A stretch of DNA of 64,000 bases from a virus (IMGVR_UViG_3300012984_000010), one strand, 5' to 3'; counted from the stretch's first letter, positions 1 to 31,575 are shown. Numbers and translations are program-made. The notes: generated from the letters alone by a model not told the origin.

Positions 1-155
1 GTTAGGGTCATTGGTAGGCGCGAAGGGTGTCGGAGTCCTACCGACTCAATGCAGCGAAAGTCTGTCTAGAATGACTCTCACCAGCTGTCATGCGGCACAG
101 CTACGGCCCTCCGTTCTTGTGGTCCTCTGAAAGGTTGCCCAGTCAGAACGCCCAG

Positions 156-226
156 AGCCTCCAACAGGAATCGGACCTGTGTCTGTCCCATACCAAAGGA
201 CGGTACTACCATTGTACTATGGAGGC
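156..226 (-). tRNA. tRNA-Thr(GGT)
   Basis: Acceptor GCCTCCA/TGGAGGC; anticodon arm GTCCT-TTGGTAT-GGGAC; T-arm ACAGG-TCCGATT-CCTGT (variant T-loop). Confidence 0.85.
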
Positions 227-230
227 ATTT

Positions 231-392
231 TCAGACATCCGAGATATGGAGCAGGAAAGCTCTTGCGAGCCAGATTTACCGTCTGGTGCCCGGCCATTGG
301 GCGTCTCCCTCATGTTTCGGCCAAAGGCCTAGTGAAGGAGGCTGGATTCGAACCAACTATTTGCGTGTATGATCCACTGGATGGATGTCTGA
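231..392 (-). ncRNA. Circularly permuted tRNA-Tyr-like RNA (P1)
   Basis: T-arm and 3' acceptor CTCCTTC-A (357-333) lie upstream of 5' acceptor GAGGGAG (311-305), D arm, anticodon arm CCAGA-CGGTAAA-TCTGG and variable hairpin; 10-bp terminal inverted repeat TCAGACATCC/GGATGTCTGA. Confidence 0.75.
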
Positions 393-393
393 G

Positions 394-466
394 AGCTGGT
401 GACTGGATTTGAACCAGCCTAAACCTGATTACGAAACAGGTGCCATCCCAAGATGACTACACCAGC
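394..466 (-). tRNA. tRNA-Thr(CGT)
   Basis: GCTGGTG/CACCAGC acceptor, loop TTCGTAA, T-loop TTCAAAT. Confidence 0.85.
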
Positions 467-622
467 ATAGGCACTGTCGTCACGCCAAACTGTCGCCGTA
501 GCTAAACAGCTCAGAAGCAGGAAGTTGCCGATGTTCTCGGTCGACCTACTGGCCGCGACCTCTTACGAGGCGATGATTGCCCAACTGAGCGGAATGCTCA
601 GCCAATGCGATGGACAAGAAGT

Positions 623-721
623 TGGTCCAAGGTGCAGGATTCGAACCCGCACTAGAGAAGCTGGGAGCTACCCAGGGTCAAACTTCTTGCAGAGGCTCTT
701 ATTCCTCTGGGCTTAGCTTGA
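623..721 (-). pseudogene. Aberrant tRNA-like RNA with 22-nt hairpin-containing anticodon loop
   Basis: Clean T-arm GCGGG-TTCGAAT-CCTGC plus ACCTTGG-A-CCA; stem AGAAG/CTTCT encloses TTTGACCCTGGGTAGCTCCCAG; mismatched acceptor. Confidence 0.5.
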
Positions 722-782
722 CGCTCTCCACCATTCCCGTTGGTCCGTCGGTCTAGCTAGAACCTAAGGCGGGTATCTTGGG

Positions 783-853
783 AGCGACCACCGAGATTCG
801 AACTCGGCTGGCACGGCTTGGAAGGCCGGCTTCTCGCCTAGAGAAATGGTCGC
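783..853 (-). tRNA. tRNA-Gly(TCC)
   Basis: GCGACCA/TGGTCGC, U73, loop CTTCCAA, T-loop TTCGAAT. Confidence 0.9.
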
Positions 854-995
854 ATTGTGATGGTTTCTGGGTCGACTCCAGTTCACGTGTGGGCTTGAAC
901 CATCAACCCGTATGCCTCACTTCGGCAGTTAGCCGCCTAGAGACAGTCACGCTGTATCTCAGCACACCGAATGATCAGTGGAACTGAGTTAGGGG

Positions 996-1067
996 CTCCT
1001 GGAGAAGGGGTCGAACCTTCGATAGGGTGATTAACAGTCACCTGCCTTACCGCTTGGCTACCCAGGA
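996..1067 (-). tRNA. tRNA-Asn(GTT)
   Basis: TCCTGGG/TCCAGGA, G73, GGTGA-CTGTTAA-TCACC. Confidence 0.92.
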
Positions 1068-1068
1068 A

Positions 1069-1140
1069 TGGCCCTGAACAACGGAATCGAACCGCTCTAT
1101 TCGTCTCGCGAAAAACGAACCCTCCCACTGAGGAACAGGA
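1069..1140 (-). pseudogene. Degenerate tRNA-like sequence with expanded anticodon loop
   Basis: T-arm GCGG-TTCGATT-CCGT and terminal G-CCA; anticodon stem TTCGT/ACGAA with 10-nt loop; mismatched acceptor. Confidence 0.45.
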
Positions 1141-1147
1141 TGATTTA

Positions 1148-1290
1148 ACAGAGCCCCGAGGCAGAAGAGCGGGGATATGACGATTTTTCTGATCGTTGCC
1201 TATTCCATTTCGGCTACATCCCCATAGGTTGGAGGGGATGGTTGGATTCGAACCAACATTGCTTGTAGGCTCCTCAAAGAGAGGCTCTGT
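1148..1290 (-). ncRNA. Circularly permuted tRNA-Phe-like RNA (P2)
   Basis: GTTGG-TTCGAAT-CCAAC-CATCCCC-T-CCA, 6-nt linker, then GGGGATG, D arm and ACGAT-CAGAAAA-ATCGT; terminal stem ACAGAGCC/GGCTCTGT. Confidence 0.8.
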
Positions 1291-1292
1291 AG

Positions 1293-1364
1293 CTCCAGGG
1301 GCAGGACTCGCACCCACACTTTTCGAGTTAACAGCTCGACGTGCTACTTTAACACTACCCTGGA
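1293..1364 (-). tRNA. tRNA-Asn(GTT), second copy
   Basis: TCCAGGG/CCCTGGA, TCGAG-CTGTTAA-CTCGA, T-loop TGCGAGT. Confidence 0.88.
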
Positions 1365-1369
1365 ATGCA

Positions 1370-1507
1370 CGATGCTTCGAGAATTGGAGAGCGGGAAATT
1401 GACAGTTGGATATACTGTTGCCTTACCATTAGGCTATTTCCCCATATTAGAGGGGAAACCGGGAATCGAACCCAGATAGCTTGTAGGCACTCCTTAGTGA
1501 AACATCG
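1370..1507 (-). ncRNA. Circularly permuted tRNA-like RNA with non-canonical anticodon loop (P3)
   Basis: CTGGG-TTCGATT-CCCGG-TTTCCCC-T, 7-nt linker, GGGGAAA, D arm GCC-TAATGGTAA-GGC, ACAGT-ATATCCA-ACTGT; terminal stem CGATGTTTC/GAAGCATCG. Confidence 0.8.
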
Positions 1508-1582
1508 TGGAGCGGGTGACCGGAATCGAACCGGCCGAGTTTTCGTTGGCAACGAACTACTCCACCTTGGAGTAACACCCGC
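1508..1582 (-). tRNA. tRNA-Gly(GCC)
   Basis: GCGGGTG/CACCCGC-T-CCA, loop TTGCCAA. Confidence 0.9.
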
Positions 1583-1595
1583 ATCTAACTAACAG

Positions 1596-1667
1596 CACTC
1601 CTGGTTGGACTCGAACCAACATGTTTCCGCTTCGAAGGCGGATGCCCATCCTTTGGACCACAAGAGT
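1596..1667 (-). tRNA. tRNA-Arg(TCG)
   Basis: ACTCTTG/CAGGAGT, TCCGC-CTTCGAA-GCGGA, T-loop TTCGAGT. Confidence 0.9.
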
Positions 1668-1876
1668 ATGGTTGAGTGAAAGGAGTACGGATCGGCCGAC
1701 CCGTAACCCTCTGACGGAACAACACCCGAGTTGTTTCACTCATCGTCTCTCACTACCTGAGATCCGGAAGGCCCTGGGATCTCTTAACCACTTTGGGCAG
1801 TGGTGGCAATGTTTATCCACAGACTCAGAAACACAGCGTTCCCAACGTCATACTGCATGTCCTTACCACGGAGGGG

Positions 1877-1961
1877 CGGAAGCGGAGGGAGTCGAACCCC
1901 CAAGGGTGTTATCCTCGACTGTTTTCAAGACAGGTTCCATCGCCAATTGGATTGCGCTTCC
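1877..1961 (-). tRNA. tRNA-Ser(TGA)
   Basis: GGAAGCG/CGCTTCC, G73, loop CTTGAAA, long variable arm. Confidence 0.92.
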
Positions 1962-1983
1962 ATTAGTTTCCCACACATCCTGA

Positions 1984-2066
1984 TCAATCTGAAGGGCTCG
2001 AACCTCCATCTCCGGCTCCAACTCGCTTACGCTTTGCCGGCGCTCTGCCCGTTGAGCTATCGTCGA
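1984..2066 (-). pseudogene. tRNA-Pro-like RNA with insertion in anticodon loop
   Basis: Canonical D arm GCTC/GAGC and T-arm; stem CCGGC/GCCGG around 19-nt loop ending TTGGA; poor acceptor pairing. Confidence 0.5.
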
Positions 2067-2230
2067 TCAGTTGTTTGTGGGCGTCACCACAGTCGTCACA
2101 ACGTTTGGAAATTCGCTTGAGTTGGCCTGTTCGGGCCCTTCCCCCGACTCACGGTTTTTAATGCGTAATGCGAGTGTTACCAATCCCAAGCGGCCTCTCC
2201 ACAGAGGTTGTACGTGCCGTGGTTACTTAG

Positions 2231-2302
2231 CACCCCCAAGGAGAGTTGAACTCCTATTTTCTGGTTGAGAACCAGACGTCCTAACCATTAGACGATGGGG
2301 GC
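2231..2302 (-). tRNA. tRNA-Glu(CTC)
   Basis: GCCCCCA/TGGGGGT, TCTGG-TTCTCAA-CCAGA. Confidence 0.9.
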
Positions 2303-2595
2303 AAAAGTTGGGGACAGGGGCCGGCTAACCCTCGGAAGAGCTTCGCTGTACCCTGTCGCCCACGGACAAATCCAGGAGAGAATTCCTTGATACCTTCCGA
2401 GGATGGTGCCTCGCTGCCTTTCCGTACCTATCCTTGTGAGGCTAGATCCTACTCGACAGACCATCTGCTCAGCGCCGGCTTCCTTCCGGATGAGTAGATG
2501 ACGTTTTTCCATGCCCTGAAGGAGCCTGGTGGAAACGAACTCAATGTGTCCTGGCTAGATTGTCAGAGAACAGGCCCTTTTTAGGGGGCGTGTAG

Positions 2596-2666
2596 TTCCG
2601 GGAGCTGGGGTCGAACCAACGTTTGCTGAGTCAGAGTCAGCCGTCCTGCCATTAGACGATCCCGGA
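2596..2666 (-). tRNA. tRNA-Gln(CTG)
   Basis: TCCGGGA/TCCCGGA, GCTGA-CTCTGAC-TCAGC. Confidence 0.9.
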
Positions 2667-2819
2667 ATGGTTTATGTTTCTTCGTTGTATCTCTCGCTCA
2701 ATCACTACTCGTCGCCACTCCTCACAGCTCTGAAATTTGAGGAGCATTGCTAAAGTCTTCTTGTCTGCTTCACGTACTTCTTTCAGGAAATCTCGATCGC
2801 TTTCGTGGAGATCCATGAG

Positions 2820-2894
2820 TGGGTGTAGGGGGAATCGAACCCGACCAACTAACCGCTTAAGAGGCGGCTACTCTACCAATTGAGTTATACACCC
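2820..2894 (-). tRNA. tRNA-Lys(CTT)
   Basis: GGGTGTA/TACACCC, loop CTCTTAA. Confidence 0.9.
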
Positions 2895-2916
2895 GTTATT
2901 TGCCAAAAACCTTAAG

Positions 2917-2988
2917 TGGGTCAGACTGGGTTCGAACCAGCGATCGTTCGCTTAAAAGGCGAGTGCTTTACCACTTAGCTACTGACCC
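2917..2988 (-). tRNA. tRNA-Lys(TTT)
   Basis: GGGTCAG/CTGACCC, loop CTTTTAA. Confidence 0.92.
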
Positions 2989-18460: not shown

Positions 18461-19027
18461 TTAGTCCTGATCCAGCTGATTAGTCGGGTCGAAATCTTTC
18501 AGCAATTTATTCTTCCGTAGCTTGAGCAGACAGTTTCTGAATTGAGGGTTATCCAGAGCCACCATACGGTATTTCTGGCTGACCCTCTTTTGCTGCACCC
18601 TGTTGATACATTCGGCACCACTCCAACCGTAGAGGAAATGCAGTGCTAGTGCCGAGACCAATCCAGAACGGTTGATGCCAGCAGCACACGTTACTAGTAC
18701 TTTCTGCCCTTGGTTGACTGCTTCCGCCACTTGTCGCCCCGCATCTACGGCTATTTGCAGCAAGTCTCGTGGGATCTTTTGAGTGTAATCGTCGCTGTTG
18801 GGGGCGTACAGGATCCGGACTCCAGGGTACTCCTCGGCCGGATCTTGCAATTCTTCTGCACAGAACACCAGCATATTGAAGCCAGCCTTCGCTACACTAG
18901 CTTGGACCTTTGGATAAGGACCTTGCCAGAGGTTGGGGACTATTTCGTCTGCCCCCAACCTCTGTAACTCAAGCTCGAAAGCTTTGATCTCAGTCTCCGC
19001 TACCTCTATCAATTTCTTGACGCTCAT
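18461..19027 (-). CDS. Dual-specificity/tyrosine phosphatase-like protein
   Basis: CX5R motif CAAGINRS. Confidence 0.88.
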   Translation of the reverse strand: MSVKKLIEVAETEIKAFELELQRLGADEIVPNLWQGPYPKVQASVAKAGFNMLVFCAEELQDPAEEYPGVRILYAPNSDDYTQKIPRDLLQIAVDAGRQVAEAVNQGQKVLVTCAAGINRSGLVSALALHFLYGWSGAECINRVQQKRVSQKYRMVALDNPQFRNCLLKLRKNKLLKDFDPTNQLDQD

Positions 19028-21005
19028 CTTTGATGTTCTCTTCCCTCAACGACTCAAGTTCAGCCTTGAAGCCACCTGAGAGGATGGGGAACCTACACCA
19101 GGAACGTGGGTCTAGATTCTTGCGGTCGACGTTGAATGCAGGAGCGTACCGCTCCCTCTTCCACTGATTCCGATACCAGAGTGTGAAGAACTTCTCGATG
19201 TGTCGAGCGATAGTCGGCTTGCTACCTTGGCTCTTCAGCGTTCTGTAGACTTCCAGCGGGCTCTTCTTTTCCAGAATCGCCAGGTCCTCAATCTGCTCCA
19301 GGACATCGTACGGCATCAAGTCCGTCTCGTCCGTTTGATTGCTTCCTGGGCGCAGTTCGGCGGTCGGCTGTTGGTTGACCACATGCTTCAAGCAGGGGTA
19401 GTCAAAGAAGGATTGGGTTCTCAACCACTTGAGGAGGAAAGCCTTTCCGATCCCTCCAATGGGGGCGATGCTACCAGAAGTGTCTCCATCCATGGTGCAA
19501 TAGCCAACCGCCGCCTCGGAACGATTGCTGGTTGTGATCAACAACTTCTGCTCGATGTTGGCCACCATCCAAATGCTAGGGGAACGCACTCGGGCCTGGA
19601 TGTTCTGAAGCGCCAAGTCGTCAGTCTCCCAGGACAGGTCTCTTCCCAACGCATGGGCGATCTTTTGCGTGTATTGGTCCACCAGCCCGTCTACGTCGAT
19701 GGCGAGGAACTTGGCCTCAATCCCCTCAGCCACCTTCCTGGCAGCCGTATAGGTCACCTCAGAGCTGTTCTTGGTGCTCTGATACATGCAGGTCAGGATC
19801 TGATTGAATTCGGTATCTGGAGGCAACCTTAAGTGCTTGAGTAATCCTTCTTGGCCGAAAGTATCACACCCTGTATTCCACATCATCTTCACCAAAACCG
19901 CACAAGCAGCGGAATCGGCGCCACCACTGAGAGAGATGACGAACCCTTTGGAATAGGCCTTCCGCATGTAGTCACATAGGGCCAGCGGAATCGCTAATGA
20001 GAAATCTTCAGCGTCCTCTGTGTCGGCTACTCCCAAATCACGGGTAGAAACACTTCCACTGAATTCAGGGATCTCTACAACACCGCGAACAGCCTGGATT
20101 TCGGACACATCTGGCATGAAACTAGCGGTGCTGGATTGTTTGGTCCTAGTAGCGTCGATATCAACCACGGCCGTCGTCAGAGTGACAGGCTTGAAGGAGA
20201 ACCGTTCCCCTCTGGCCACCATACTGCCGTTCGTAGCAATCAGGTTGCCCCCATCGTAGATGGCTCGGCCCGCCTCGTTACCTAGGAGATTGGCGTACAC
20301 GTACGTAACTCCAAAGGCCCTGGAACCCTCCAAGATGAAGCGTTGCCGTACCTGATATTTTCCGAAAGCAAAATGGCTGGCCGACGGGTTGAGGATCAGG
20401 TCCACCCCATGTTGAGAGAGTTTGACCCCAGGACGATTGGCCACCCAAGCATCTTCACAGATCTCGAAGCCAACACGGAAGGCCCTTCTATTTGTATCTT
20501 GTAGGTCAAAGTCGAACAGCAGGTCTCCGATTGGAATAGGGTGTTCAGCATCATCCTGAGATGAGTCGATTCTGCAGAAACCTGAAAGTACCTTCACGCC
20601 CGCCGGCCAGGGTTTGAACCAACGAGGTTCGTAGTGCAGACCGTCGCCCGCCAGATGTTGCTTGGCCACGAACCCCAGCACTTCTCCTGAATCAATCATG
20701 GCTGAGACGTTGTATAGGGCGTTCTGAAACAGGAAAGGGAGACCCACACAGACCTTCATCGAGATGTTGTGTGAATCCATGTATTCGGCAATCTCACGTA
20801 ATGTTTCCAGGGCCCTCTCTTGTACATCGTGTGAATGGAAGTGATCTTCACAACCATATCCAGTGATGCAGAGTTCCGGCAAACAGAGAATGTTGACGCC
20901 GGCCTCCTTTGCGGCATCGATGGCAGAGATGATGTTCTGGTAGTTACCTTCCCAATCGAGAGGGGTTTGATTTAGCGAAGCGGCGCCGACTTTGATGAGT
21001 TGCAT
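18990..21005 (-). CDS. nadE: Glutamine-dependent NAD+ synthetase
   Basis: CN-hydrolase domain (LPELCITGY, EICED) plus SLSGGADS, NIQAR.R, SEAAVGYCTMDGD, PTAEL. Confidence 0.95.
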   Translation of the reverse strand: MQLIKVGAASLNQTPLDWEGNYQNIISAIDAAKEAGVNILCLPELCITGYGCEDHFHSHDVQERALETLREIAEYMDSHNISMKVCVGLPFLFQNALYNVSAMIDSGEVLGFVAKQHLAGDGLHYEPRWFKPWPAGVKVLSGFCRIDSSQDDAEHPIPIGDLLFDFDLQDTNRRAFRVGFEICEDAWVANRPGVKLSQHGVDLILNPSASHFAFGKYQVRQRFILEGSRAFGVTYVYANLLGNEAGRAIYDGGNLIATNGSMVARGERFSFKPVTLTTAVVDIDATRTKQSSTASFMPDVSEIQAVRGVVEIPEFSGSVSTRDLGVADTEDAEDFSLAIPLALCDYMRKAYSKGFVISLSGGADSAACAVLVKMMWNTGCDTFGQEGLLKHLRLPPDTEFNQILTCMYQSTKNSSEVTYTAARKVAEGIEAKFLAIDVDGLVDQYTQKIAHALGRDLSWETDDLALQNIQARVRSPSIWMVANIEQKLLITTSNRSEAAVGYCTMDGDTSGSIAPIGGIGKAFLLKWLRTQSFFDYPCLKHVVNQQPTAELRPGSNQTDETDLMPYDVLEQIEDLAILEKKSPLEVYRTLKSQGSKPTIARHIEKFFTLWYRNQWKRERYAPAFNVDRKNLDPRSWCRFPILSGGFKAELESLREENIKDERQEIDRGSGD

Positions 21006-21008
21006 CGT

Positions 21009-22631
21009 TCAACCTTTCAAACACGCTTGAGCCAGCACTTCTTGCTTGCGTGCTCGGCATTGATTGATCAGACGTTGAGTTTCAGCAGAGAAGACTGGGG
21101 GTTCTCTTCTGATGCTACCTTGGTTCGGCGGCAGCACGTCGTCCGATTCCTTGTCGGTGAGAAGGTAGTAGGAATCGAGGGAGATCTGTTCTCCCTCTTG
21201 AGCGATGATGCTGGCCGGCATCCGATGAGCATCCACACCAGGGCGGATGCGCCAAATCACCGGCATGCCTGGAATTGATTCTTTGGCACTCTTGGGTTCA
21301 TCTCCGAACTTCATTGTTGAGAGACTACCACTCTGAGAAAGCTTCCACACCGCCGCCACATCGTCCCGTGAGAAAGTGGGCCACTCTGGCTTGGTGAAGT
21401 AGCCCCCATATCCGTACGCTTGTCGATCCATCGGCCATCGAACCTGCTTACGCAATTCTTCGAATTCGACCGTCAGTTCCTTGTTCCAACCGCTCTCAAG
21501 AGCTAGACGAGGCTCCAACCCTTTCTCCCTCGCCAACGCGACCGTGTAGGTGTAATGACTGCGGACGTTGGCTTCCGAGTCGAACCGGATCCCCGCATCA
21601 CGTCCGGGGTCTTCCGCGATCACCCGCAACGCACTGGGAACGCCAGACATGAGGGTACTGGTGGTGTCGGGCAGGTAGAAGAGAAAGCCTGGAAACCGGT
21701 CTTTCATCGCCGTATAGGCGGCGTAATCGTCGAGATTGAACCGCTGTGGGTGTTCGTGACCCATCGTTCCGACTGGGATCATGTTGAGTTTTTGAGCCAA
21801 CTCAACGTTAGAGGTACGCAGCACACCCGCGTCCTTGATGGCCTTGAGCACAATCTCATGTTGCTCTGAACACGAGACTCCTCGCATTCCGACCTCGAAC
21901 AAGCGATCAGGGTTTTCCACGATACCTACCAGTTCTTTGGCACGTCGGTAAACCCACTCGTAATAAGCCTGCTCACGAACCTCGATATTGAATTGAGGTA
22001 GGAGTTTGATCTTGGATCCTAGGTCGATTGCTAGAGAATCCAGCGTTTCCAGGATGATGTCCTTTTCTCGCTGACAGGTGGCGAATCGAATACGCTCAGC
22101 CAGCTCGGCAGTCTTCCCCGCCTTGTAGAGTGTCGCGAGCTGGATTCGAAAGTTTAGCTGGAGAGCGGTAGGTTCCAACCAGCTTGAAACCGCACTAGGG
22201 CCCTTGGCGAAAAAAGCTGGCTCCCGATTGTAGAACCAGGAACCCTTCGGGACTGAACTGATGCGTAGATTGTCCTTGAGGGAGAAAGCCTTACGAAAAC
22301 CAGCACCTACCTCATAGTTGTGTTGGCTCAAGTAATCGTAATCGGTAGGATCGTTGATCACGTCAGGTAGGAGGTCTTTCACGAACTTCTTGACATCTAC
22401 CGGCATGTAGTGCCAACCATTGACCCCGCCCTTGCGGTGTGAGTAGCCGAAAGTCTCCTCGCGAAGGGCAAAGCCCGCCTCAGCCATCGAAATCTTGTAT
22501 GCGTCTGTACGTAGCAATTTGGTCATGACCAACATTACACCAAATAATCTGATTTTCCGGCAGGAATCTGCTCTTAAGATCCTGATCCCTATGACCGTAG
22601 GTACATGTGACGGCACTGAAATGCCGTCCAC
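21009..22631 (-). CDS. pncB: Nicotinate/nicotinamide phosphoribosyltransferase
   Basis: LRTDAYK.SM, GTMGHE, PDT, GIRFDS. Confidence 0.75.
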   Translation of the reverse strand: MDGISVPSHVPTVIGIRILRADSCRKIRLFGVMLVMTKLLRTDAYKISMAEAGFALREETFGYSHRKGGVNGWHYMPVDVKKFVKDLLPDVINDPTDYDYLSQHNYEVGAGFRKAFSLKDNLRISSVPKGSWFYNREPAFFAKGPSAVSSWLEPTALQLNFRIQLATLYKAGKTAELAERIRFATCQREKDIILETLDSLAIDLGSKIKLLPQFNIEVREQAYYEWVYRRAKELVGIVENPDRLFEVGMRGVSCSEQHEIVLKAIKDAGVLRTSNVELAQKLNMIPVGTMGHEHPQRFNLDDYAAYTAMKDRFPGFLFYLPDTTSTLMSGVPSALRVIAEDPGRDAGIRFDSEANVRSHYTYTVALAREKGLEPRLALESGWNKELTVEFEELRKQVRWPMDRQAYGYGGYFTKPEWPTFSRDDVAAVWKLSQSGSLSTMKFGDEPKSAKESIPGMPVIWRIRPGVDAHRMPASIIAQEGEQISLDSYYLLTDKESDDVLPPNQGSIRREPPVFSAETQRLINQCRARKQEVLAQACLKG

Positions 22632-23242: not shown

Positions 23243-24202
23243 ATGAGACCAGCAACGCTTACAGGATTGGCTGTGGGGGATTCATTAGGAATGCCCTTTG
23301 AGACACACCACTTCACTTCTGAGGCGTTGCTGGCTTGGGACGGAACCTTCCAGTCGGGCGCCACCAACACCATCCAGCCCAATCTTCGGCCAGGTCAGTG
23401 GACCGATGATACCAAGATGGCGTTGGCGTTGGCCAACAGCCTGATCAGCAGTGAGACCTATGACCCTATCGGGGCTACTCAACACTACATCGAGTGGTAC
23501 GACTCTAACGACCACCGAGGGATGGGTAAAGCTACCAAAGAAGCTTTAGAACGAATCATCCAAGGTCATCATTGGATGAACTCTGGTGTCAAATCACAGG
23601 GTAACGGAACGGCTATGAGGGTGGCCCCTTTGGGGTTGTTCTACCATCATAGCCCAGAGGCTGCTGCTGCTGCTGCTCGTATTGATGCCAGAATCACCCA
23701 CAACTCCCAGCTTTCAATTGAGGGTTCGGTCATTGTGGCGGTGGCGGTGGCGATTTTGGCCAGTGGTGCTCCTAAGGTGGTTGATTCTGCAGATGGGGAT
23801 CATGACTTGATTCGCCGAGTCTTGTATTACTCAGAAACCTGTGCTCTGTGGGATCGACTGGTAGACGTCAGGGAATGTGTTGAAGAACTCCCCGCAGATC
23901 CTACCGATAGACTCAAAGCTTCAATGAAAACCCTTTTGGAGATGGGGACTGGAGCACACGTATTGCAGACCGTGCCCGCCGCTTTTCTCTGCTTCCTGGC
24001 TACCAGTAGCTTTGCAGAAGCGGTCGATTTGGCGGTCCGAGTAGGCGGAGATACCGACACCACCGCCGCCATCACAGGAGCGTTGGCAGGGACGTTTTAC
24101 GGTACTGAACAGGTCAAACCCTATTTGGGTGTGTTGGAAGAAGCTGCTCTGTTGAGCCATTTGGAGAACAGGCTTTTTCTATCCGCTCCCAGAATCCCCT
24201 GA
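23243..24202 (+). CDS. ADP-ribosylglycohydrolase (DraG/ARH family)
   Basis: GDSLG, WTDDT, GNGTAMR, GGDTDT. Confidence 0.93.
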   Translation: MRPATLTGLAVGDSLGMPFETHHFTSEALLAWDGTFQSGATNTIQPNLRPGQWTDDTKMALALANSLISSETYDPIGATQHYIEWYDSNDHRGMGKATKEALERIIQGHHWMNSGVKSQGNGTAMRVAPLGLFYHHSPEAAAAAARIDARITHNSQLSIEGSVIVAVAVAILASGAPKVVDSADGDHDLIRRVLYYSETCALWDRLVDVRECVEELPADPTDRLKASMKTLLEMGTGAHVLQTVPAAFLCFLATSSFAEAVDLAVRVGGDTDTTAAITGALAGTFYGTEQVKPYLGVLEEAALLSHLENRLFLSAPRIP

Positions 24203-25092: not shown

Positions 25093-25164
25093 GGGGGCGT
25101 AGCTCAGCGGTAGAGCAAGGGATTCTAAAACCCTAGGCCGTGGGTTCGAATCCCACTGTCCCCT
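25093..25164 (+). tRNA. Amber suppressor tRNA (CUA), short variable loop, U73
   Basis: GGGGGCG/TGTCCCC; AGGGA-TTCTAAA-ACCCT with CTA at 25125-25127; T-arm GTGGG-TTCGAAT-CCCAC. Confidence 0.9.
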
Positions 25165-25169
25165 CTCAA

Positions 25170-25260
25170 GCCTTCGTCGCTCAGCGGCCAGAGCAGCAGA
25201 TTCTAAAACTGCGTGAGTCCTCATGGATGAAGATCGTGGGTTCGAGTCCCACCGAAGGCA
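25170..25260 (+). tRNA. Amber suppressor tRNA (CUA), long variable arm, A73 (Leu-like)
   Basis: GCCTTCG/CGAAGGC-A; GCAGA-TTCTAAA-ACTGC with CTA at 25203-25205; 23-nt variable region. Confidence 0.88.
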
Positions 25261-25262
25261 CC

Positions 25263-25589
25263 CTAGGTAAGAGCCAGTGACAACCCTCTGCAAAGCTTCT
25301 TGGCAGCAGGACCCAGCAACGCAACTGCCGTGAGTTCGTTGTTTCGGTCTGGTTCATTGAACGATGCCGAGAATATGTTCCGCATCTAAGCCTTGTCCAG
25401 AAGCACTTTAAGTGTAGGTTCGTCCTCCACTACCAGAAAGGCCAGTGTGTTGGAATCGTGGTACCACTCTTTGAACGGTTCAGGGTGCTGCATACTTAGC
25501 TCTGTCAGCGCGTGAGCCGACTGAACAGCTTGTTGTCCAGGCGACAAGTCAACCCTGGTGATCAGGTACAGTTTAGAGGAGGGTTTCAT
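25263..25589 (-). CDS. PTH2-like peptidyl-tRNA hydrolase with in-frame TAG at 25386-25388
   Basis: KLYLITRVDLSPGQQAVQSAHA ... LLDKA*MRNIFSASFNEPDRNNELTAVALLGP; the domain continues past TAG to give 108 codons. Confidence 0.8.
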
Positions 25590-26040
25590 TTTCCCAAAAG
25601 GATTCGTGCTCTTGGAACGAATCCTCCAATCGTCTGAGGGCCTCTTGCTTCTGTTTGGTGAAATGGTCGGACACCATCTGGATGATGTTCGGAGGTACGC
25701 CGTCCATCTCCAGAGTTTCTTTCCAATGAGCCTTAGGGGTATCCCCATAGGTGCTCTTTTCTCCAACCACGTAACTGCTTTTGCTGCTGTATACTCGACC
25801 TAGATCAGTATCGAGGTACAGATAGAGCCTCAACATGGCGTCAGAGCAGCAGCCACAGCTGTGACGGAGTTCCGCCTCGGTCGCCACCACAGCCGATGAG
25901 ATCAACCTTTCCCATCTGTGTCGATCCGTAACTTTGGCCAGATCTGGGAAACGACTTCTAAGCTGTTCAAGGCGAGCTGCTTCGGCTAGGCTGGCCGTCG
26001 CCTCTTTCTTCAGTCGTTCGATCTCTTTTTCGACGCTCAC
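25573..26040 (-). CDS. Hypothetical protein (amber-gated operon)
   Basis: 155-aa ORF, HSCGCC motif, GTGA-coupled. Confidence 0.7.
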   Translation of the reverse strand: MSVEKEIERLKKEATASLAEAARLEQLRSRFPDLAKVTDRHRWERLISSAVVATEAELRHSCGCCSDAMLRLYLYLDTDLGRVYSSKSSYVVGEKSTYGDTPKAHWKETLEMDGVPPNIIQMVSDHFTKQKQEALRRLEDSFQEHESFWENETLL

Positions 26041-26945
26041 GAGACACCTCCCAAAAGAGCCTTGGCGTACTGTAGGGCGTCACGAATCTTCTCCACATAA
26101 TGTCCTGAGAAGATCTCACTACGATGGGTAACCCCATCCTTGTAGATCACCAGCTTGACCGGTCCGGTCTTGACCGCCCATTCAAAGTCAATCGTGTAAG
26201 GCTGGGTAGGAGTCTTGGAAGCAATCCGCTTGCAGAATCGGCTCTCTTCTAGCTTGAGTTCTGGGGCCCACCCTTCGTAGGTCCAACCAATACCATGGTT
26301 CTTCTCAGGGTTGAAGATAGGGTCTTTCAGCCCTTCAACGAAGGCTAGGTAGAGAGGGTCGTTGTTGAAGAAGTCGGTCCACCAAAGGTCAGACTCTCGG
26401 CGACGATTGGCCCTATTGCGTGTCTCCTCAGCCGAGACCCATAGCTTATCGGCCTCATCGTCTGAGATCATGTCGTACAGCAAATCCTCTTCATTGAAGT
26501 GAATCCGCCCCCACCACGCCACCACCTCATTGTTCGAGAAGTCTAGTGTGGGTCTTTCTTTGGCTCGCTTGTAGTAGCCCTCTGAGTCTTTCTGGTGAGC
26601 ACCCAAAGCTCTCTTCCCACTCTCATCGTAATCGCAATGAGTCCCTACGCTCTCCTGGAAGTCTCGATGACGTCGATACAGTTCTCCGATCTGTTCATCT
26701 TCGAGCCGAACGATTGCGAAGTTGCGGCCAGTCAGATGTCCCTCTTCAACATCTGAGCTCAAACCTACTACTCCGTCCAACACGCATTCGAACCAATGTT
26801 CGTGACCTCCCATCAGGATGACACCAGACAATACCCCATCCCAATAACTGCAGTGCCACAACATCTTGAAATCGACGTCTCGCTTCTTGTGGGGCAGGTC
26901 TCGGATGAGACGGAAGTCGGACTTTGCCTCAGCCAGAGTGGTCAT
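26037..26945 (-). CDS. Hypothetical protein (amber-gated operon)
   Basis: 302-aa coupled ORF. Confidence 0.7.
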   Translation of the reverse strand: MTTLAEAKSDFRLIRDLPHKKRDVDFKMLWHCSYWDGVLSGVILMGGHEHWFECVLDGVVGLSSDVEEGHLTGRNFAIVRLEDEQIGELYRRHRDFQESVGTHCDYDESGKRALGAHQKDSEGYYKRAKERPTLDFSNNEVVAWWGRIHFNEEDLLYDMISDDEADKLWVSAEETRNRANRRRESDLWWTDFFNNDPLYLAFVEGLKDPIFNPEKNHGIGWTYEGWAPELKLEESRFCKRIASKTPTQPYTIDFEWAVKTGPVKLVIYKDGVTHRSEIFSGHYVEKIRDALQYAKALLGGVS

Positions 26946-27433
26946 CAGGCCAACACCCTAGACAGGAGGGATGAGAACCAGTTCTTCGGCTTGACCGGTA
27001 CCACAACCATTGGGGCATCTGGTGGTTGTGAAGTACCCTTCCCATACATCAATTCGTAAATCTGCAAAGGATCCCAAGTGTTGATGACCTGACGCTCTTC
27101 CTCAGTCCAGGTTTTGGCGTCCTCATTGATGCCAAAAGCTCTGTAGATGTGCCACGAAACTGTCTTTGGATACGGAGGTTCTGAACACTTAGCTTCCAAA
27201 TCCTGGTATGGGCGACCACGAAGAATAGCGTAGGCAATGTAGAGGTGTCGGAGCGAGTCTTGTGTACCGTTCACGTAGTCTAGACGTAGCTGATAGCGCT
27301 CTGGACCCGTATCAGCACTGGACGTGACACAGTTCTTCAGCTCATGCAGCTTGGTCCTAAGAACCGGCTTTTCAGCCGAAAGGTCTTTGATCTTCTGTCG
27401 AATGTGGGCAATCGCGGCTTTATGGGAATTCAT
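26945..27433 (-). CDS. Hypothetical protein, first gene after amber/RAPP leader
   Basis: 162 aa, RHLYIAYAILRGRPY..LE; SD AGGAG lies in a hairpin. Confidence 0.75.
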   Translation of the reverse strand: MNSHKAAIAHIRQKIKDLSAEKPVLRTKLHELKNCVTSSADTGPERYQLRLDYVNGTQDSLRHLYIAYAILRGRPYQDLEAKCSEPPYPKTVSWHIYRAFGINEDAKTWTEEERQVINTWDPLQIYELMYGKGTSQPPDAPMVVVPVKPKNWFSSLLSRVLA

Positions 27434-27526
27434 AATCGTCTCCTGTAGATAGCTAGTACACTGAATGGGGGCAGTGTACGCTACAGGAGGGGCTCGCGAC
27501 TTCGGACAATTCAGCTACAAGAACAT
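27434..27526 (-). promoter_or_regulatory. Translational attenuator leader: ATG TTC TTG TAG ... RAPP plus SD-sequestering hairpin
   Basis: Readthrough gives MFL*LNCPKSRAPPVAYTAPIQCTSYLQETI in frame with the 27433 ATG; stems CTCCTGTAG/CTACAGGAG and GTACACTG/CAGTGTAC. Confidence 0.75.
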
Positions 27527-27535
27527 GACCGCACC

Positions 27536-27564
27536 ATCCTACGTTCTTCCGCCCTAACTGTCAA
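27536..27564 (-). promoter_or_regulatory. Sigma70-type promoter
   Basis: TTGACA-17 nt-TAGGAT, 9 nt before the leader ATG. Confidence 0.75.
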
Positions 27565-30053: not shown

Positions 30054-30650
30054 ATGAACCGAGCCGAATTCTTCGCCAAACTGGACCCTTTTTTCTCTCC
30101 TACCAGTCTGCTACAGATTCAGGTGGCCTACACGTTCGCCAAGTTCGGCCATCGGGCTCAGGTGCGGAAAGAGAAGGATGAGTCTGGCAAGCCCCTTCGG
30201 TACTTTGAGCACGTTCGACGGGTAGCGGTCAACGTTATCGACGATGCCAGGATCCCCCTCCCAGAATTGGTGGTGGCGGGACTGATCCACGATGGTATCG
30301 AGGATACACGAGACCTGACCCCAGAGATGATCCAACACCTCTTTGGGGAAGATGTGGTGCGGATCGTCAAGACTCTGTCCAAAGTGCCGGAACAAGGTTA
30401 TTTGGAACGATTCTATCTGTCGACTGATTGGCGTGCCTACGTCGTCAAAGCGTGTGACCGTCTCGACAATCTCAGGTCTTTGGGCGCCGCCTCTGCGGAA
30501 TTTCAGGCAAAACAGATCAAAGAGACTCGGGAGAAGTACTATCCGCTGTTCGACCGGATGGTTGAGCTTACCCCTCCAGAGTACCTAGCTAGGGTTCGAA
30601 ACCTTCGAGATCTGGTGATCAAGCAGACGGAAGGCCACCGTATTCCTTAG
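30054..30650 (+). CDS. RelA/SpoT-type HD hydrolase (Mesh1/SAH-like)
   Basis: FA.FGH..Q.RK...Y.EH..RVA, LIHD.IED, VKACDRLDNLR. Confidence 0.85.
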   Translation: MNRAEFFAKLDPFFSPTSLLQIQVAYTFAKFGHRAQVRKEKDESGKPLRYFEHVRRVAVNVIDDARIPLPELVVAGLIHDGIEDTRDLTPEMIQHLFGEDVVRIVKTLSKVPEQGYLERFYLSTDWRAYVVKACDRLDNLRSLGAASAEFQAKQIKETREKYYPLFDRMVELTPPEYLARVRNLRDLVIKQTEGHRIP

Positions 30651-31258
30651 CTGTTTCTACCTTCGTAGGACTTAGCTACCGAGAACCTGGGGGATGCGTA
30701 TCCGGTCCCATAGACCCAGATCCAGGCCCCGTGCGTGCGGACACCGTAGCTTCCGACCTCGACACCATTCAGCTCCAGATCAAAACCCATGTCCATAGCT
30801 ATGGGGGTCACTTCTAAGGTAGATGTCCCAGCTATCGATCCAAAGAACGTTTTGGCGTCATTGATCATCTGCTCCAATGCGGAACAGGCCCAAAGGCCTT
30901 TCTTACCACCACGGCTGAGAGCGATGTCTCGGTGAATCTCTATCAACTCGACCTTCATGAAGGCTCGTTGATGTTCCTGATCTAGGCGATCGTCCCTGAA
31001 GCAGGGGGTGACCGCCACATACTTGCCGTCCAGCTTCTGCTCGTCCACAACCGTCATCTGGATGAACGATTGCTCGGCCGAACCAACCAGATCTCCAAAG
31101 ACGCAGGAAATTGGAACGTGGTCCTCAGGGAGAGTTTTCAGTATCGCCTCGCGACTGACCAGCCAAGGCACCTCCAAGTATCTGTATCCAGCCTTGGTGT
31201 AGAATGAGACCGCCTCGGCAATGTGTTGCCAGTCGATCGGAAACACCTCCCTAGTCAC
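30647..31258 (-). CDS. Stand-alone class II aminoacyl-tRNA synthetase catalytic-core-like protein
   Basis: GSAEQ, PCFRDD (motif 2), FMKVEL, EVGSYG, GTG...PR (motif 3); no anticodon-binding domain. Confidence 0.75.
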   Translation of the reverse strand: MTREVFPIDWQHIAEAVSFYTKAGYRYLEVPWLVSREAILKTLPEDHVPISCVFGDLVGSAEQSFIQMTVVDEQKLDGKYVAVTPCFRDDRLDQEHQRAFMKVELIEIHRDIALSRGGKKGLWACSALEQMINDAKTFFGSIAGTSTLEVTPIAMDMGFDLELNGVEVGSYGVRTHGAWIWVYGTGYASPRFSVAKSYEGRNS

Positions 31259-31575
31259 TTCCGATCTCCTGATTCGAAGGCCCGCCTGGTGGCGGCCGCC
31301 ATCTTGGCCAACTCTCCCATATCGGTCCCCAACTGTTCGGCCACTCCTTCCAGAGCTCCGTACAGGTCCGCCAGCTCGCACAGGGCTAGGATACTATTCC
31401 GCTGTTCGAGCGCCTCCTCTAGCTCGTCCAATTCCTCGCGAATCTTCGAGGTCTGCCCATACGTGCCTCGGACGGTGATTGGGCGTAGATGGTAGCCTGG
31501 TTTGGGTTGGTCGGGGAACAACGGAACTGATGAAGCCAACTCATCAGTTCCGACAGGGAGGGTTCTGAACGACAT
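31255..31575 (-). CDS. MazG-like NTP pyrophosphohydrolase
   Basis: KIREELDEL....ELADLYG. Confidence 0.7.
   Translation of the reverse strand: MSFRTLPVGTDELASSVPLFPDQPKPGYHLRPITVRGTYGQTSKIREELDELEEALEQRNSILALCELADLYGALEGVAEQLGTDMGELAKMAAATRRAFESGDRK

What the first reader, a model, noticed from the sequence alone, without database searches (positions are those of the whole stretch)
25263..25589. PTH2-like hydrolase with an internal TAG, adjacent to the amber tRNAs
The ORF track ends this protein at 25386 (LLDKA*). The same frame continues MRNIFSASFNEPDRNNELTAVALLGPAAKKLCRGLSLALT, which resembles the C-terminal half of PTH2-fold proteins (EPD...T.VA..P). Total length is 108 codons, typical for PTH2. 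Leu would fit at the TAG (KA-L-MR), matching the Leu-like suppressor. The true end is also a TAG, 2 nt from the 3' end of the second tRNA.
Basis: partly seen in the sequence, partly recalled or inferred. Interest (0 to 1): 0.85.

Follow-up and report, generated by a model that had tools for sequence, protein, structure and literature searches.

The report
Stop-codon-gated phage PTH2-like gene
A giant soil phage that otherwise uses the normal genetic code keeps a UAG stop codon in the middle of a small tRNA-hydrolase-like gene, right beside two phage tRNAs that read UAG, so the enzyme is probably made only while those tRNAs override the stop; this gives the puzzling 'orphan' suppressor tRNAs of large phages a concrete target.

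Summary
On the minus strand, 25589-25263 encodes a 108-codon PTH2-like protein broken only by TAG at codon 68 (25386-25388). Read through, it passes Pfam's PTH2 threshold, aligns end to end with more than 50 homologues and folds as a complete Pth2 domain. The TAG is identical in independent soil assemblies.

It is not a genome-wide code change. Code 11 gives about 91% ORF coverage and TAG ends about 20% of ORFs. In 47 kb of synteny with the closest relative, this is the only gene with an in-frame stop, and the relative carries its own TAG at another codon.

Across 71 related loci, 49 have a suppressor tRNA near the gene and 40 of these have a matching in-frame stop, either in the gene or in an upstream leader ending in R[A/G]PP. 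Stop codon and anticodon change together: TAG with CUA, TAA with UUA, TGA with UCA. This window has such a leader (TAG at codon 4, RAPP, hairpin over the next gene's ribosome-binding site), conserved in the relative.

Best reading: an operon whose expression depends on the phage's own amber suppressors.

The proposed Leu at the TAG is not supported. The protein is PTH2-like, not a proven Pth2. This scan noted the same arrangement before on other genomes; I found no published description.

The parts
25263..25589 (-). PTH2-like gene, 108 codons. ATG 25589-25587, in-frame TAG at codon 68, terminal TAG 25265-25263.
   Evidence: Pfam PTH2, 26.9 bits over residues 6-101. (homologues span the TAG). 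(AF2 pLDDT 95.8; Foldseek top hits are Pth2 structures, TM 0.78-0.81).
25386..25388 (-). In-frame UAG (codon 68), followed by A (UAG-A). It lies at the C-terminal end of helix 57-69 and upstream of strands 73-79 and 85-92.
   Evidence: Identical in 4 assemblies and in 4 runs' contigs.
25221..25262 (-). Possible 13-codon extension, ending at TGA, if the terminal UAG is also suppressed. It is antisense to tRNA-2.
   Evidence: Read from the sequence. Inference only.
25093..25164 (+). Amber suppressor tRNA-1: 72 nt, anticodon CUA in loop UUCUAAA, A31-A39 mismatch, discriminator U.
   Evidence: (Rfam tRNA, 66.3 bits).
25170..25260 (+). Amber suppressor tRNA-2: 91 nt, long variable arm, same anticodon loop, discriminator A. 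Orthologues sit next to the TAG-interrupted PTH2-like genes of G001 and L045.
   Evidence: (52.8 bits).
25573..26040 (-). Operon gene 3 (155 aa, no known family). Its end overlaps the PTH2-like start by 17 nt. Homologues lie directly upstream of the PTH2-like gene in 7 other loci.
26037..26945 (-). Operon gene 2 (302 aa, no known family). Start and stop overlap the neighbouring genes.
26945..27433 (-). Operon gene 1 (162 aa, no known family). Its ribosome-binding site lies in the 3' arm of the leader hairpin.
27434..27526 (-). Leader ORF: ATG 27526-27524, UAG at codon 4 (27517-27515), Arg-Ala-Pro-Pro at 27496-27485. Hairpin arms 27489-27481 and 27448-27440; the 3' arm holds the GGAG of gene 1.
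   Evidence: peptide conserved in G001 with synonymous changes; -23 kcal/mol; z = -2.9; same leader type in 24 loci; its stop covaries with the anticodon.
27536..27564 (-). Promoter-like site TTGACA-17-TAGGAT, 9 nt upstream of the leader ATG. Both hexamers are conserved in G001 (TTGACA, TAGTAT).
   Evidence: A consensus match only.

Best explanation
The PTH2-like gene is intact. Its UAG at codon 68 is a programmed gate that is decoded by the phage's own amber-suppressor tRNAs, which lie convergently 0-170 nt beyond the gene's end.

The gene closes a four-gene operon (27564 to 25263, minus strand) that carries a second gate at its 5' end. This is a leader, Met-Phe-Leu-UAG-...-Arg-Ala-Pro-Pro. 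When the leader's UAG is read through, a ribosome should stall on RAPP directly over the 5' arm of a hairpin that otherwise sequesters the ribosome-binding site of the first gene.

Without suppression, the leader ends after three codons, the hairpin stays closed, and any PTH2-like translation stops at residue 67. That leaves a fragment lacking two central beta-strands and the invariant Glu-Pro-Asp and Thr.

With suppression, the operon opens and the full-length protein is made. The amount of PTH2-like enzyme is therefore tied to how strongly UAG is being overridden.

Shown: gene integrity, fold, conservation, the link to the tRNAs, and covariation of stop and anticodon. Inferred: actual readthrough, the RAPP stall, unmasking of the ribosome-binding site, the residue inserted, and what the enzyme does.

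My inference on function: because the enzyme is placed downstream of suppression, it most likely deals with a consequence of suppression (dropped-off peptidyl-tRNA) or limits it.
For: 1. Intact domain across the TAG. Pfam gives 26.9 bits for the read-through product against 20.5 for the N-half alone. 51 homologues span the TAG. The invariant residues E79, P80, D81, T87 and A88 lie downstream and are kept. The AF2 model has pLDDT 95.8 and a Pth2 fold at TM 0.78-0.81.

2. Purifying selection downstream. Against the closest relative G001, synonymous sites are saturated (pS 0.76). The non-synonymous proportion is 0.17 downstream of both TAGs and 0.31 upstream.

3. Recurrence. In-frame TAG inside the aligned part of the gene (here 'mid-gene') occurs at four different columns in five lineages: window codon 68, G001 codon 58, L060 same column as G001, L017, and L045. 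All are TAG, never TAA or TGA, and all have a CUA tRNA in cis. About 32 of 71 loci also carry an early stop at codon 3-7 with no alternative start after it.

4. Gene specificity. Window and G001 are syntenic over about 47 kb, and only this gene has an in-frame stop in the conserved frame. Across five sequences (about 960 kb), 153 TAG-ending ORFs had an extension of at least 20 codons. Only the PTH2-like gene has an extension that many (82) other sequences match across the stop; the other 8 hits rest on one or two matching sequences. TAG-split ORF pairs are no commoner than TAA or TGA controls.

5. Link to the tRNA. 47 of 69 IMG/VR loci have a suppressor tRNA, 40 of them within 1.5 kb. In 23 loci it is the only tRNA within 10 kb either side. 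In G001 and G003 it sits with the PTH2-like gene, far from the tRNA arrays. G002 (203 kb) has a single tRNA, and it is the CUA one.

6. Lock and key. 40 of 49 loci with a suppressor have a matching gate: CUA 36/41 with TAG, UUA 3/7 with TAA, UCA 1/1 with TGA. Loci without a suppressor show 5/22, TAG only.

7. Leader. The peptide and hairpin are conserved in G001. Leaders of this type give 25 hits on the PTH2-like strand and 2 on the other. RAPP and RGPP are experimentally established arrest motifs (PMC10951233, PMC12992588; their abstracts as listed).

8. Context. Gating TAGs are followed by A in 34 of 57 cases and by T in 1 of 57. Terminal TAGs are followed by A in 55 of 158 and by T in 24 of 158 (chi-square p = 0.002, not corrected for relatedness). 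The window's gate is UAG-A.
Against: Nothing here is experimental. Expression and charging of either tRNA, readthrough, and the RAPP stall are all unshown.

TAG ends about 20% of ORFs in the window and in four relatives. TAG-ended genes have no excess of nearby back-up stops. A strong, constitutive suppressor should therefore be costly, so suppression must be weak, timed or context-dependent.

All sampled copies of this phage are identical. There is no within-population evidence of selection on this particular TAG.

In the window an ATG follows the TAG directly, preceded by AAGG, so reinitiation cannot be excluded for this copy.

The G001 hairpin is weaker (-13 kcal/mol, one C-A mismatch).

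Only 64 kb of a contig of about 475 kb is visible, so the rest of this genome's coding is inferred from relatives.
Confidence: 0.74

Rival explanations
1. Recent pseudogene. A nonsense mutation killed a PTH2-like gene that happens to lie near suppressor tRNAs because such genes usually sit near phage tRNAs.
For: A single TAG is the simplest possible lesion. All sampled copies are identical, so the event could be recent. TAG is an ordinary stop in this genome.
Against: The closest relative has its own TAG at a different codon of the same gene and nowhere else in 47 kb of synteny. Five lineages carry mid-gene TAGs and about 32 carry early stops, with no TAA, TGA or frameshift lesions inside the aligned gene and no TAA/TGA gate in a locus whose tRNA does not match it. 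The stop type follows the neighbouring anticodon. The region downstream of the TAG is better conserved than the region upstream.
Confidence: 0.07
2. Split gene. Translation ends at UAG and restarts at the adjacent AUG (25385-25383). This would give 67-aa and 40-aa pieces that assemble, or only the N-terminal fragment would be used.
For: In the window, TAG is followed at once by ATG, and an AAGG lies 5 nt upstream of it. Met is not seen at this column in homologues.
Against: In the other four mid-gene cases the next codon is CTG, GTA, TTC or CTC, none of them a start codon. The cut would separate two central strands from the rest of a 108-residue single domain. The family-wide covariation of stop and anticodon has no role in this model.
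Confidence: 0.05
3. Ordinary genome-wide code change (TAG reassigned, as in code-15 phages). This gene would be just one of many recoded genes, the others lying outside the window.
For: Phage suppressor tRNAs are the hallmark of recoded phages, where recoding concentrates in late genes (bioRxiv 10.1101/2021.08.26.457843). Only 64 kb of about 475 kb is visible here.
Against: Code-11 ORF tiling covers 91.5% of the window and 90-94% of four relatives. One of these is a 392-kb contig rated 91% complete, whose only low bins lie at about 180-220 kb, the part that holds the PTH2-like gene and its suppressor tRNA (I take it to hold the tRNA arrays too, by analogy with G001; not mapped). TAG ends 17-23% of ORFs. 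No other homology-supported readthrough was found.
Confidence: 0.07
4. Tolerated drift. With suppressor tRNAs present, TAG mutations are nearly neutral in any gene expressed together with them. The TAG in this gene would then have no regulatory meaning.
For: Published work proposes that suppressors 'detoxify' in-frame stops before recoding spreads. The gating codons sit at tolerant positions: the N-terminus or variable columns. The tRNAs belong to many identity classes.
Against: Drift should scatter TAGs over many genes, yet they are confined to this gene and its leader in every genome examined. The early-codon position and the leader design (stop, then an arrest motif over a hairpin) recur across distant phages. 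The A-rich context after gating TAGs suggests selection for readthrough.
Confidence: 0.07

Closest known systems
Stop-codon-recoded phages with phage-encoded suppressor tRNAs (TAG read as Gln, 'code 15'; crAss-like, Lak and others; bioRxiv 10.1101/2021.08.26.457843)
   Same: A phage-encoded suppressor tRNA lets in-frame stops be translated. In-frame stops are proposed to delay expression of particular genes until the tRNA is made.
   Different: Here the genome keeps the standard code. TAG still ends about a fifth of ORFs, and only one small operon (leader plus PTH2-like gene) carries in-frame TAGs. The target is not a lysis or structural gene, the tRNA classes are heterogeneous, and no PTH2-like partner is mentioned in that work.
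RAPP/RGPP ribosome-arrest leader peptides (ApdA, ApdP and relatives; PMC7897499, PMC10951233, PMC12992588)
   Same: A short upstream ORF ends in Arg-Ala/Gly-Pro-Pro and is placed so that a stalled ribosome would open a hairpin over the next gene's ribosome-binding site.
   Different: Known examples sense protein export (Sec/YidC). Here the arrest motif can only be reached if a UAG at codon 4 is read through, so the sensed quantity would be suppression itself. The leaders are only 12-21 codons long.
prfB (RF2) autoregulation through an in-frame UGA
   Same: An in-frame stop inside a translation-factor gene ties that gene's output to how efficiently the stop is decoded.
   Different: prfB uses a +1 frameshift and senses release-factor level. 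Here the stop is read by a dedicated tRNA and no frameshift is needed.
Archaeal and eukaryotic Pth2 peptidyl-tRNA hydrolases (2zv3, 1q7s Bit1, 1wn2, 3erj, 1xty), and the PTH2 genes noted in jumbo phages and cluster C mycobacteriophage tRNA arrays (PMC7824862, PMC5966550)
   Same: Same fold (TM 0.78-0.81) and size. Shared motifs ...Q..HA in helix 1 and ...T.(V/I)A..P in the last strand. Encoded near phage tRNAs.
   Different: The Lys of the Pth2 'GK' motif aligns to Gln20, and the Asp of 'DAG' aligns to Glu79 within an invariant Glu-Pro-Asp. Two loops are shorter. The NCBIfam Pth2 equivalog scores 18.8 bits against a cut-off of 126. The papers found by my searches do not note the link to suppressor tRNAs or the in-frame stops.
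Orphan suppressor tRNAs of standard-code jumbo phages (XacN1, Atu_ph07, phiKp24; PMC5852040, PMC6102473, PMC8386662)
   Same: Large phages with the standard code, CUA, UCA or UUA tRNAs, and a peptidyl-tRNA hydrolase gene.
   Different: Those studies found no target for the suppressors: in-silico readthrough of 18 amber stops in XacN1 gave nothing. Here a specific target is identified.

Membership tests
PTH2 (Pfam PF01981) | Profile score above the gathering threshold (23 bits) | tested here: met
   26.9 bits over residues 6-101 for the read-through product; the 67-aa N-terminal fragment alone scores 20.5.
PTH2 (Pfam PF01981) | Pth2 alpha/beta fold | tested here: met
   AF2 pLDDT 95.8, pTM 0.88. 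The top 13 Foldseek PDB hits are Pth2 chains, TM 0.71-0.81, E down to 1.6e-08.
Pth2 enzyme (functional equivalog) | Catalytic residues of characterised Pth2: the Lys of the GK motif and the Asp of DAG. Their catalytic role is recalled from the S. solfataricus Pth2 literature and was not re-read here. | tested here: not met
   In the profile-to-PDB alignment the Lys aligns to the near-invariant Gln20 and the Asp to the invariant Glu79 (Glu-Pro-Asp). The Lys is absent and the Asp is replaced by an acidic Glu.
Pth2 enzyme (functional equivalog) | NCBIfam equivalog NF003314 score above its cut-off | tested here: not met
   18.8 bits against a cut-off of 126.
Pth2 enzyme (functional equivalog) | Hydrolysis of peptidyl- or N-acetyl-aminoacyl-tRNA | not testable with these tools
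   Needs a biochemical assay.
Amber suppressor tRNA | Canonical cloverleaf with CUA at positions 34-36 in a 7-nt loop, with U33 and a purine at 37 | tested here: met
   Rfam tRNA 66.3 and 52.8 bits against a gathering score of 29. Both have loop UUCUAAA; both have an A31-A39 mismatch.
Amber suppressor tRNA | Expressed, aminoacylated and accepted by the ribosome at UAG | not testable with these tools
   No RNA run holds the locus. The identity class is unresolved: U73, and a type II tRNA with A73.
Stop-codon-recoded phage (code 15-like) | Many genes with in-frame TAG, low code-11 coding density, TAG rare as a terminator | tested here: not met
   Code-11 ORF tiling covers 91.5% of the window. 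23 of 117 ORFs end in TAG. One gene has an in-frame TAG within 47 kb of synteny. The four relatives behave the same way.
RAPP/RGPP arrest-peptide leader | Short upstream ORF ending in R-A/G-P-P, upstream of a regulated gene | tested here: met
   Leader at 27526-27434 with RAPP at 27496-27485. It is conserved in G001, and the same type occurs in 24 loci on the PTH2-like strand.
RAPP/RGPP arrest-peptide leader | The stall site overlaps an RNA structure that masks the downstream ribosome-binding site | tested here: met
   A 9-bp stem pairs the Pro-Pro-Val codons with the GGAG of gene 1: -23 kcal/mol, whole-leader z = -2.9. The G001 stem is weaker, -13 kcal/mol. In silico only.
RAPP/RGPP arrest-peptide leader | Ribosome arrest demonstrated | not testable with these tools
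   Needs toeprinting or reporter assays.

The most novel reading that the evidence does not exclude
The leader, the PTH2-like enzyme and the suppressor tRNAs form a self-contained control loop for stop-codon readthrough. The operon measures UAG suppression through its two gates, and its product acts back on the suppressor, for example by hydrolysing aminoacyl- or peptidyl-tRNA(CUA). This would hold readthrough at a level useful to the phage but tolerable in a genome where TAG still ends a fifth of the genes. It would be a translational homeostat with no described counterpart, and it would explain why standard-code giant phages carry 'orphan' suppressor tRNAs.
Probability: 0.18. Interest if true: 0.9.

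Novelty: new variant of a known kind. Interest (0 to 1): 0.74.

Why it matters
Suppressor tRNAs are common in large phages that use the standard code, and published analyses could not find what they decode (XacN1, PMC5852040). This locus and its relatives give a specific, conserved target: a small operon that keeps stop codons matched to the neighbouring tRNA's anticodon, in its leader and in its PTH2-like gene.

That makes an open question testable. Reporter fusions, toeprinting and mass spectrometry on a 2.5-kb cassette would show three things: whether stop-codon override is sensed and coupled to a tRNA-processing enzyme, which amino acid goes in, and what the enzyme does.

It may also represent the earliest stage, or a stable alternative, of the route to full stop-codon reassignment in phages. 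It would also supply compact suppression-dependent genetic switches.

Tried and rejected
- Near-identical DNA in GenBank phages: none.
- RNA evidence: no RNA holder listed among public runs. The four runs laid are DNA contigs, three of them possibly the source samples.
- No whole genome is held for the window, so the remaining roughly 410 kb of this phage could not be examined. Relatives G001-G004 were used instead.
- Crude ORF counts after dropping each stop in turn, and a codon-usage score, were not discriminating and were replaced by tiling with controls.
- Raw tblastx lists were dominated by off-frame HSPs and had to be filtered to the best frame.
- An apparent in-frame TAG in a second G001 gene (aligned to window 34168) lies upstream of the likely start codon and was dismissed.
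- The terminase family PF03237 was not found in G001-G004.
- The three upstream operon proteins have no Pfam, PHROG or NCBIfam match, and the Atlas gave nothing usable.
- Back-up stops after TAG-ended genes are not enriched.
- tRNA identity: the nearest non-suppressor relatives of tRNA-2 are Leu tRNAs at only 65-68% identity, with Ser at 65%, so no assignment was made. I recalled a D-loop and anticodon-stem resemblance to E. coli tRNA-Tyr but did not test it, and it is not used.
- Complex prediction and the representative-library search were not used. No claim here depends on them.

Full report
**What is there**

The feature lies on the minus strand. An ATG at 25589 opens a frame that reads 67 codons to a TAG at 25386-25388. 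It then continues for 40 more codons to a second TAG at 25263-25265.

Two tRNA genes with anticodon CUA lie convergently on the plus strand. tRNA-1 is at 25093-25164 (72 nt, discriminator U). tRNA-2 is at 25170-25260 (91 nt, long variable arm, discriminator A). Both score well above Rfam's tRNA threshold, at 66.3 and 52.8 bits. Both share the loop UUCUAAA and an A31-A39 mismatch.

The gene's terminal TAG directly abuts the 3' end of tRNA-2. If it were also read through, 13 more codons would be added before a TGA.

**Is the read-through product a real protein?**

Yes.
- Pfam PTH2 scores 26.9 bits over residues 6-101 for the read-through product. The N-terminal 67 residues alone score 20.5 bits, below the 23-bit cut-off.
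- A search of 5.8 billion proteins returned 51 homologues (plus the window's own 67-aa fragment), most of them 103-118 aa long, at 48-61% identity. Most cover 94-99% of the query, so they span the TAG.
- In the alignments, E79, P80, D81, T87 and A88 are invariant in both, F77 in one and L105 in the other. All lie downstream of the TAG and all are kept in the window.
- An AlphaFold2 model built on the alignment has pLDDT 95.8. The TAG falls at the end of helix 57-69, and two central strands (73-79, 85-92) follow it.
- Foldseek's top hits are all Pth2 structures (2zv3, 1q7s, 1wn2, 3erj, 1xty) at TM 0.71-0.81.

A 67-residue product could not form this fold.

**Is the TAG an error?**

No. The 67-aa fragment is called on 10 contigs. 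Four independent assemblies are 100% identical over 561 nt, including both TAGs and both tRNAs. Logan contigs of four soil runs show no difference at the site, with depths of 2.4 to 25. Three of the runs may be the source samples, so they are not fully independent.

**Is it a genome-wide code change?**

No, as far as can be seen.
- Under code 11 a simple ORF tiling covers 91.5% of the window, and 23 of 117 ORFs end in TAG.
- The closest relative, G001 (IMG/VR contig of 155 kb), is syntenic with window positions 1 to about 47,000 at 50-80% amino-acid identity. In the conserved frames, the only in-frame stops in either genome are in this gene. The two TAGs are at different codons: 68 in the window, aligned to Arg AGG in G001, and 58 in G001, aligned to Thr in the window.
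- TAG-split ORF pairs are no more frequent than TAA or TGA controls.
- Three further genomes with TAG-interrupted homologues (203, 392 and 143 kb) also tile at 90-94% under code 11, with TAG ending 17-23% of ORFs.
- Across the five sequences, 153 TAG-ended ORFs had an extension of at least 20 codons. Only the PTH2-like gene has an extension that many (82) other sequences match across the stop; the other 8 spanning hits rest on one or two sequences, mostly with a stop at the same place. Only 41 of the 153 had any foreign homologue, so this test has limited power.

**Family-level evidence**

A scan of IMG/VR gave 80 loci, 69 of them distinct, mostly on contigs of 140-510 kb.

Link to the tRNA:
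- 47 of the 69 loci hold a suppressor-type tRNA: 39 CUA, 7 UUA and 1 UCA.
- 40 of these lie within 1.5 kb of the gene. Nearly all are downstream and on the same strand.
- In 23 loci the suppressor is the only tRNA within 10 kb on either side.
- In G001 and G003 the suppressor sits beside the PTH2-like gene and not in the large tRNA arrays. G002 has one tRNA in 203 kb, and it is the CUA one.
- Cultured mycobacteriophages show the same neighbourhood. In Cane17 (Bxz1-like) a CUA tRNA lies 250 nt downstream and is annotated tRNA-OTHER. In Myrna one lies 130 nt downstream.

In-frame stops in the gene:
- Four more lineages have a TAG within the aligned part of the gene (here 'mid-gene'), at other positions.
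- After earlier notes of this scan pointed to very early stops, I rescanned the starts. About 32 of 71 genes open with ATG, 1-5 codons, then a stop, with no alternative start before the conserved body.

**The leader**

The window's gene is the last of four overlapping genes: 27433-26945, 26945-26037, 26040-25573 and 25589-25263.

Upstream lies a promoter-like TTGACA-17-TAGGAT. Nine nucleotides later a leader reads Met-Phe-Leu-TAG-Leu-Asn-Cys-Pro-Lys-Ser-Arg-Ala-Pro-Pro-Val-Ala.

The Pro-Pro-Val codons form the 5' arm of a 9-bp stem. Its 3' arm contains the GGAG of the first gene. The stem is worth -23 kcal/mol, and the whole leader has z = -2.9 against shuffles.

G001 keeps the promoter hexamers, the identical first five codons including TAG, and Lys-Ser-Arg-Ala-Pro-Pro-Val-Ala. 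It does so with synonymous changes and an in-frame indel. Its stem is weaker, at -13 kcal/mol.

A pattern search (start, 1-6 codons, stop, 2-20 codons, R-[A/G]-P-P) gave the following:
- With TAG as the stop, 25 hits on the PTH2-like strand and 2 on the other strand.
- TAA leaders in three loci whose tRNA is UUA.
- A TGA leader in the one locus whose tRNA is UCA.

**Stop and anticodon change together**

Combining gates in the gene and in the leader, 40 of 49 loci with a suppressor have a matching gate:

| Neighbouring tRNA | Loci with a matching gate |
|---|---|
| CUA | 36 of 41 (TAG) |
| UUA | 3 of 7 (TAA) |
| UCA | 1 of 1 (TGA) |
| none detected | 5 of 22 (TAG only) |

RAPP and RGPP are experimentally established arrest motifs (PMC10951233, PMC12992588).

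**Mechanism proposed**

- Without suppression, the leader ends after three codons and the hairpin keeps the first gene's ribosome-binding site closed. Any ribosome that reaches the PTH2-like gene stops at residue 67.
- With suppression, a ribosome reads on to RAPP, stalls over the 5' arm and opens the site. The downstream UAG is then also read, and full-length protein is made.
- The operon's output, and the PTH2-like enzyme in particular, would therefore track the level of UAG override.

The steps from 'readthrough occurs' onward are inference.

Two further observations fit this model. Gating TAGs are followed by A in 34 of 57 cases and by T in 1 of 57, unlike terminal TAGs (p = 0.002, uncorrected for relatedness). 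A 3' A is the context known from E. coli genetics to favour amber suppression (my own knowledge). Against G001, the part of the gene downstream of both TAGs has a non-synonymous proportion of 0.17, against 0.31 upstream, with synonymous sites saturated.

**Which amino acid?**

Not determinable here. The TAG column is variable and never Leu in 33 homologues. The other gated columns favour Ala/Ser or Glu.

The suppressor tRNAs next to these genes are heterogeneous. Among the short ones, the discriminator is G in 22, A in 20, U in 7 and C in 4. Eight have long variable arms. The gate therefore seems to sit where any residue is tolerated.

By E. coli rules a type II tRNA with A73 could be Leu or Tyr.

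**What does the enzyme do?**

It has the Pth2 fold, but the Lys of the Pth2 'GK' motif aligns to Gln20 and the Asp of 'DAG' aligns to Glu79 of an invariant Glu-Pro-Asp. The NCBIfam Pth2 equivalog model scores far below its cut-off. I therefore call it PTH2-like.

Because it is placed downstream of suppression, I infer one of two roles. It either clears a by-product of suppression (dropped-off peptidyl-tRNA) or limits suppression by acting on the suppressor tRNA.

The cost argument favours some form of restraint: TAG ends a fifth of the genes, and there is no excess of back-up stops.

**Rivals**

- A recent pseudogene, a split gene restarting at the ATG that follows the TAG, an ordinary code change, and neutral drift under suppression are each given 5-7%.
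- The split-gene idea is specific to this copy. The other four mid-gene cases have no start codon after the TAG.

**Literature and earlier notes**

- PTH2 genes in jumbo phages and in cluster C tRNA arrays are published (PMC7824862, PMC5966550).
- Orphan suppressor tRNAs in standard-code jumbo phages are published as unexplained (PMC5852040, PMC6102473, PMC8386662).
- The stop-codon recoding preprint I searched does not contain the word 'hydrolase'.
- My searches found no paper that links the two or notes the in-frame stops.
- This scan, however, has noted the same arrangement repeatedly on other genomes: 90 notes in at least 59 genomes. The claims I took from those notes (early stops, the RAPP leader, matching of stop and anticodon) were re-tested here on my own loci.

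**What is particular to this window**

- The gate lies mid-gene (codon 68) rather than at codons 3-7.
- Two structurally different CUA tRNAs lie in tandem.
- The tRNAs are convergent with the gene and its stop codon touches the tRNA's 3' end. In most relatives the tRNA is downstream on the same strand.

Noticed in passing
window 30647-31381 (-): A 244-aa stand-alone class II aminoacyl-tRNA-synthetase core lies 5.4 kb from the suppressor tRNAs. It matches PHROG 4806 'histidyl tRNA synthetase' (E 1.5e-39), Pfam tRNA-synt_2d (26.5 bits) and weakly pheS. No anticodon-binding domain was detected. It could charge an atypical tRNA. It is conserved near the module in only a few loci.
   Followed up: partly
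L009, L013, L035, L037, L042, L055, L056, L063, L070, L078, L086, L010, L047, L084 (next to the PTH2-like match): Where no suppressor tRNA is present, the tRNA closest to the PTH2-like gene often has an unusual anticodon. Some have A34 (aaa, aat, aag, ata). Others are ARAGORN calls with 4-nt or 2-nt anticodons (ccta, ttca, ctta, ta, gg, ga). The gene may be linked to non-standard decoders in general.
   Followed up: no
window 23243-24202 (+): An ADP-ribosylglycohydrolase gene is a recurrent neighbour of the module. Homologues at 41-68% identity lie within about 0.3-2.7 kb beyond the PTH2-like gene, on the opposite strand, in 7 other loci (about 8.5 kb upstream in an eighth).
   Followed up: partly
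window 155-2988 (-), also 1877-1961 and 1991-2059: An array of 11 tRNAs called by ARAGORN, plus two extra Rfam tRNA matches that ARAGORN missed. It lies 22 kb from the suppressors and on the other strand. In G001 the syntenic array continues to 42 tRNAs.
   Followed up: no
G001-G004 and window, all ORFs of at least 100 aa: T is depleted as the base after terminal TAG (24 of 158, 15%). The figure is 39% after TAA and 30% after TGA. This is unexplained. It may reflect selection on the termination context in genomes that carry amber suppressors.
   Followed up: no
L001 (Mycobacterium phage Cane17) 2974-2982: The annotated GTG start of the 'peptidyl tRNA hydrolase' is directly preceded, in frame, by ATG-TAG. 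It may be a degenerate or alternative form of the early gate in a cultured phage.
   Followed up: no
L041: A mismatch case. The leader and the early gate are both TAG, but the only suppressor found in the locus is UUA. A CUA tRNA may lie outside the locus or may have been missed.
   Followed up: no
window 18990-22631 (-): NAD synthase (CN_hydrolase plus NAD_synthase) and neighbouring NAD-salvage-like genes lie next to NADAR, an HD-domain hydrolase and an RNA ligase. This looks like an auxiliary metabolic and anti-defence region of the phage. The Pfam hits come from the precomputed table for L003.
   Followed up: no
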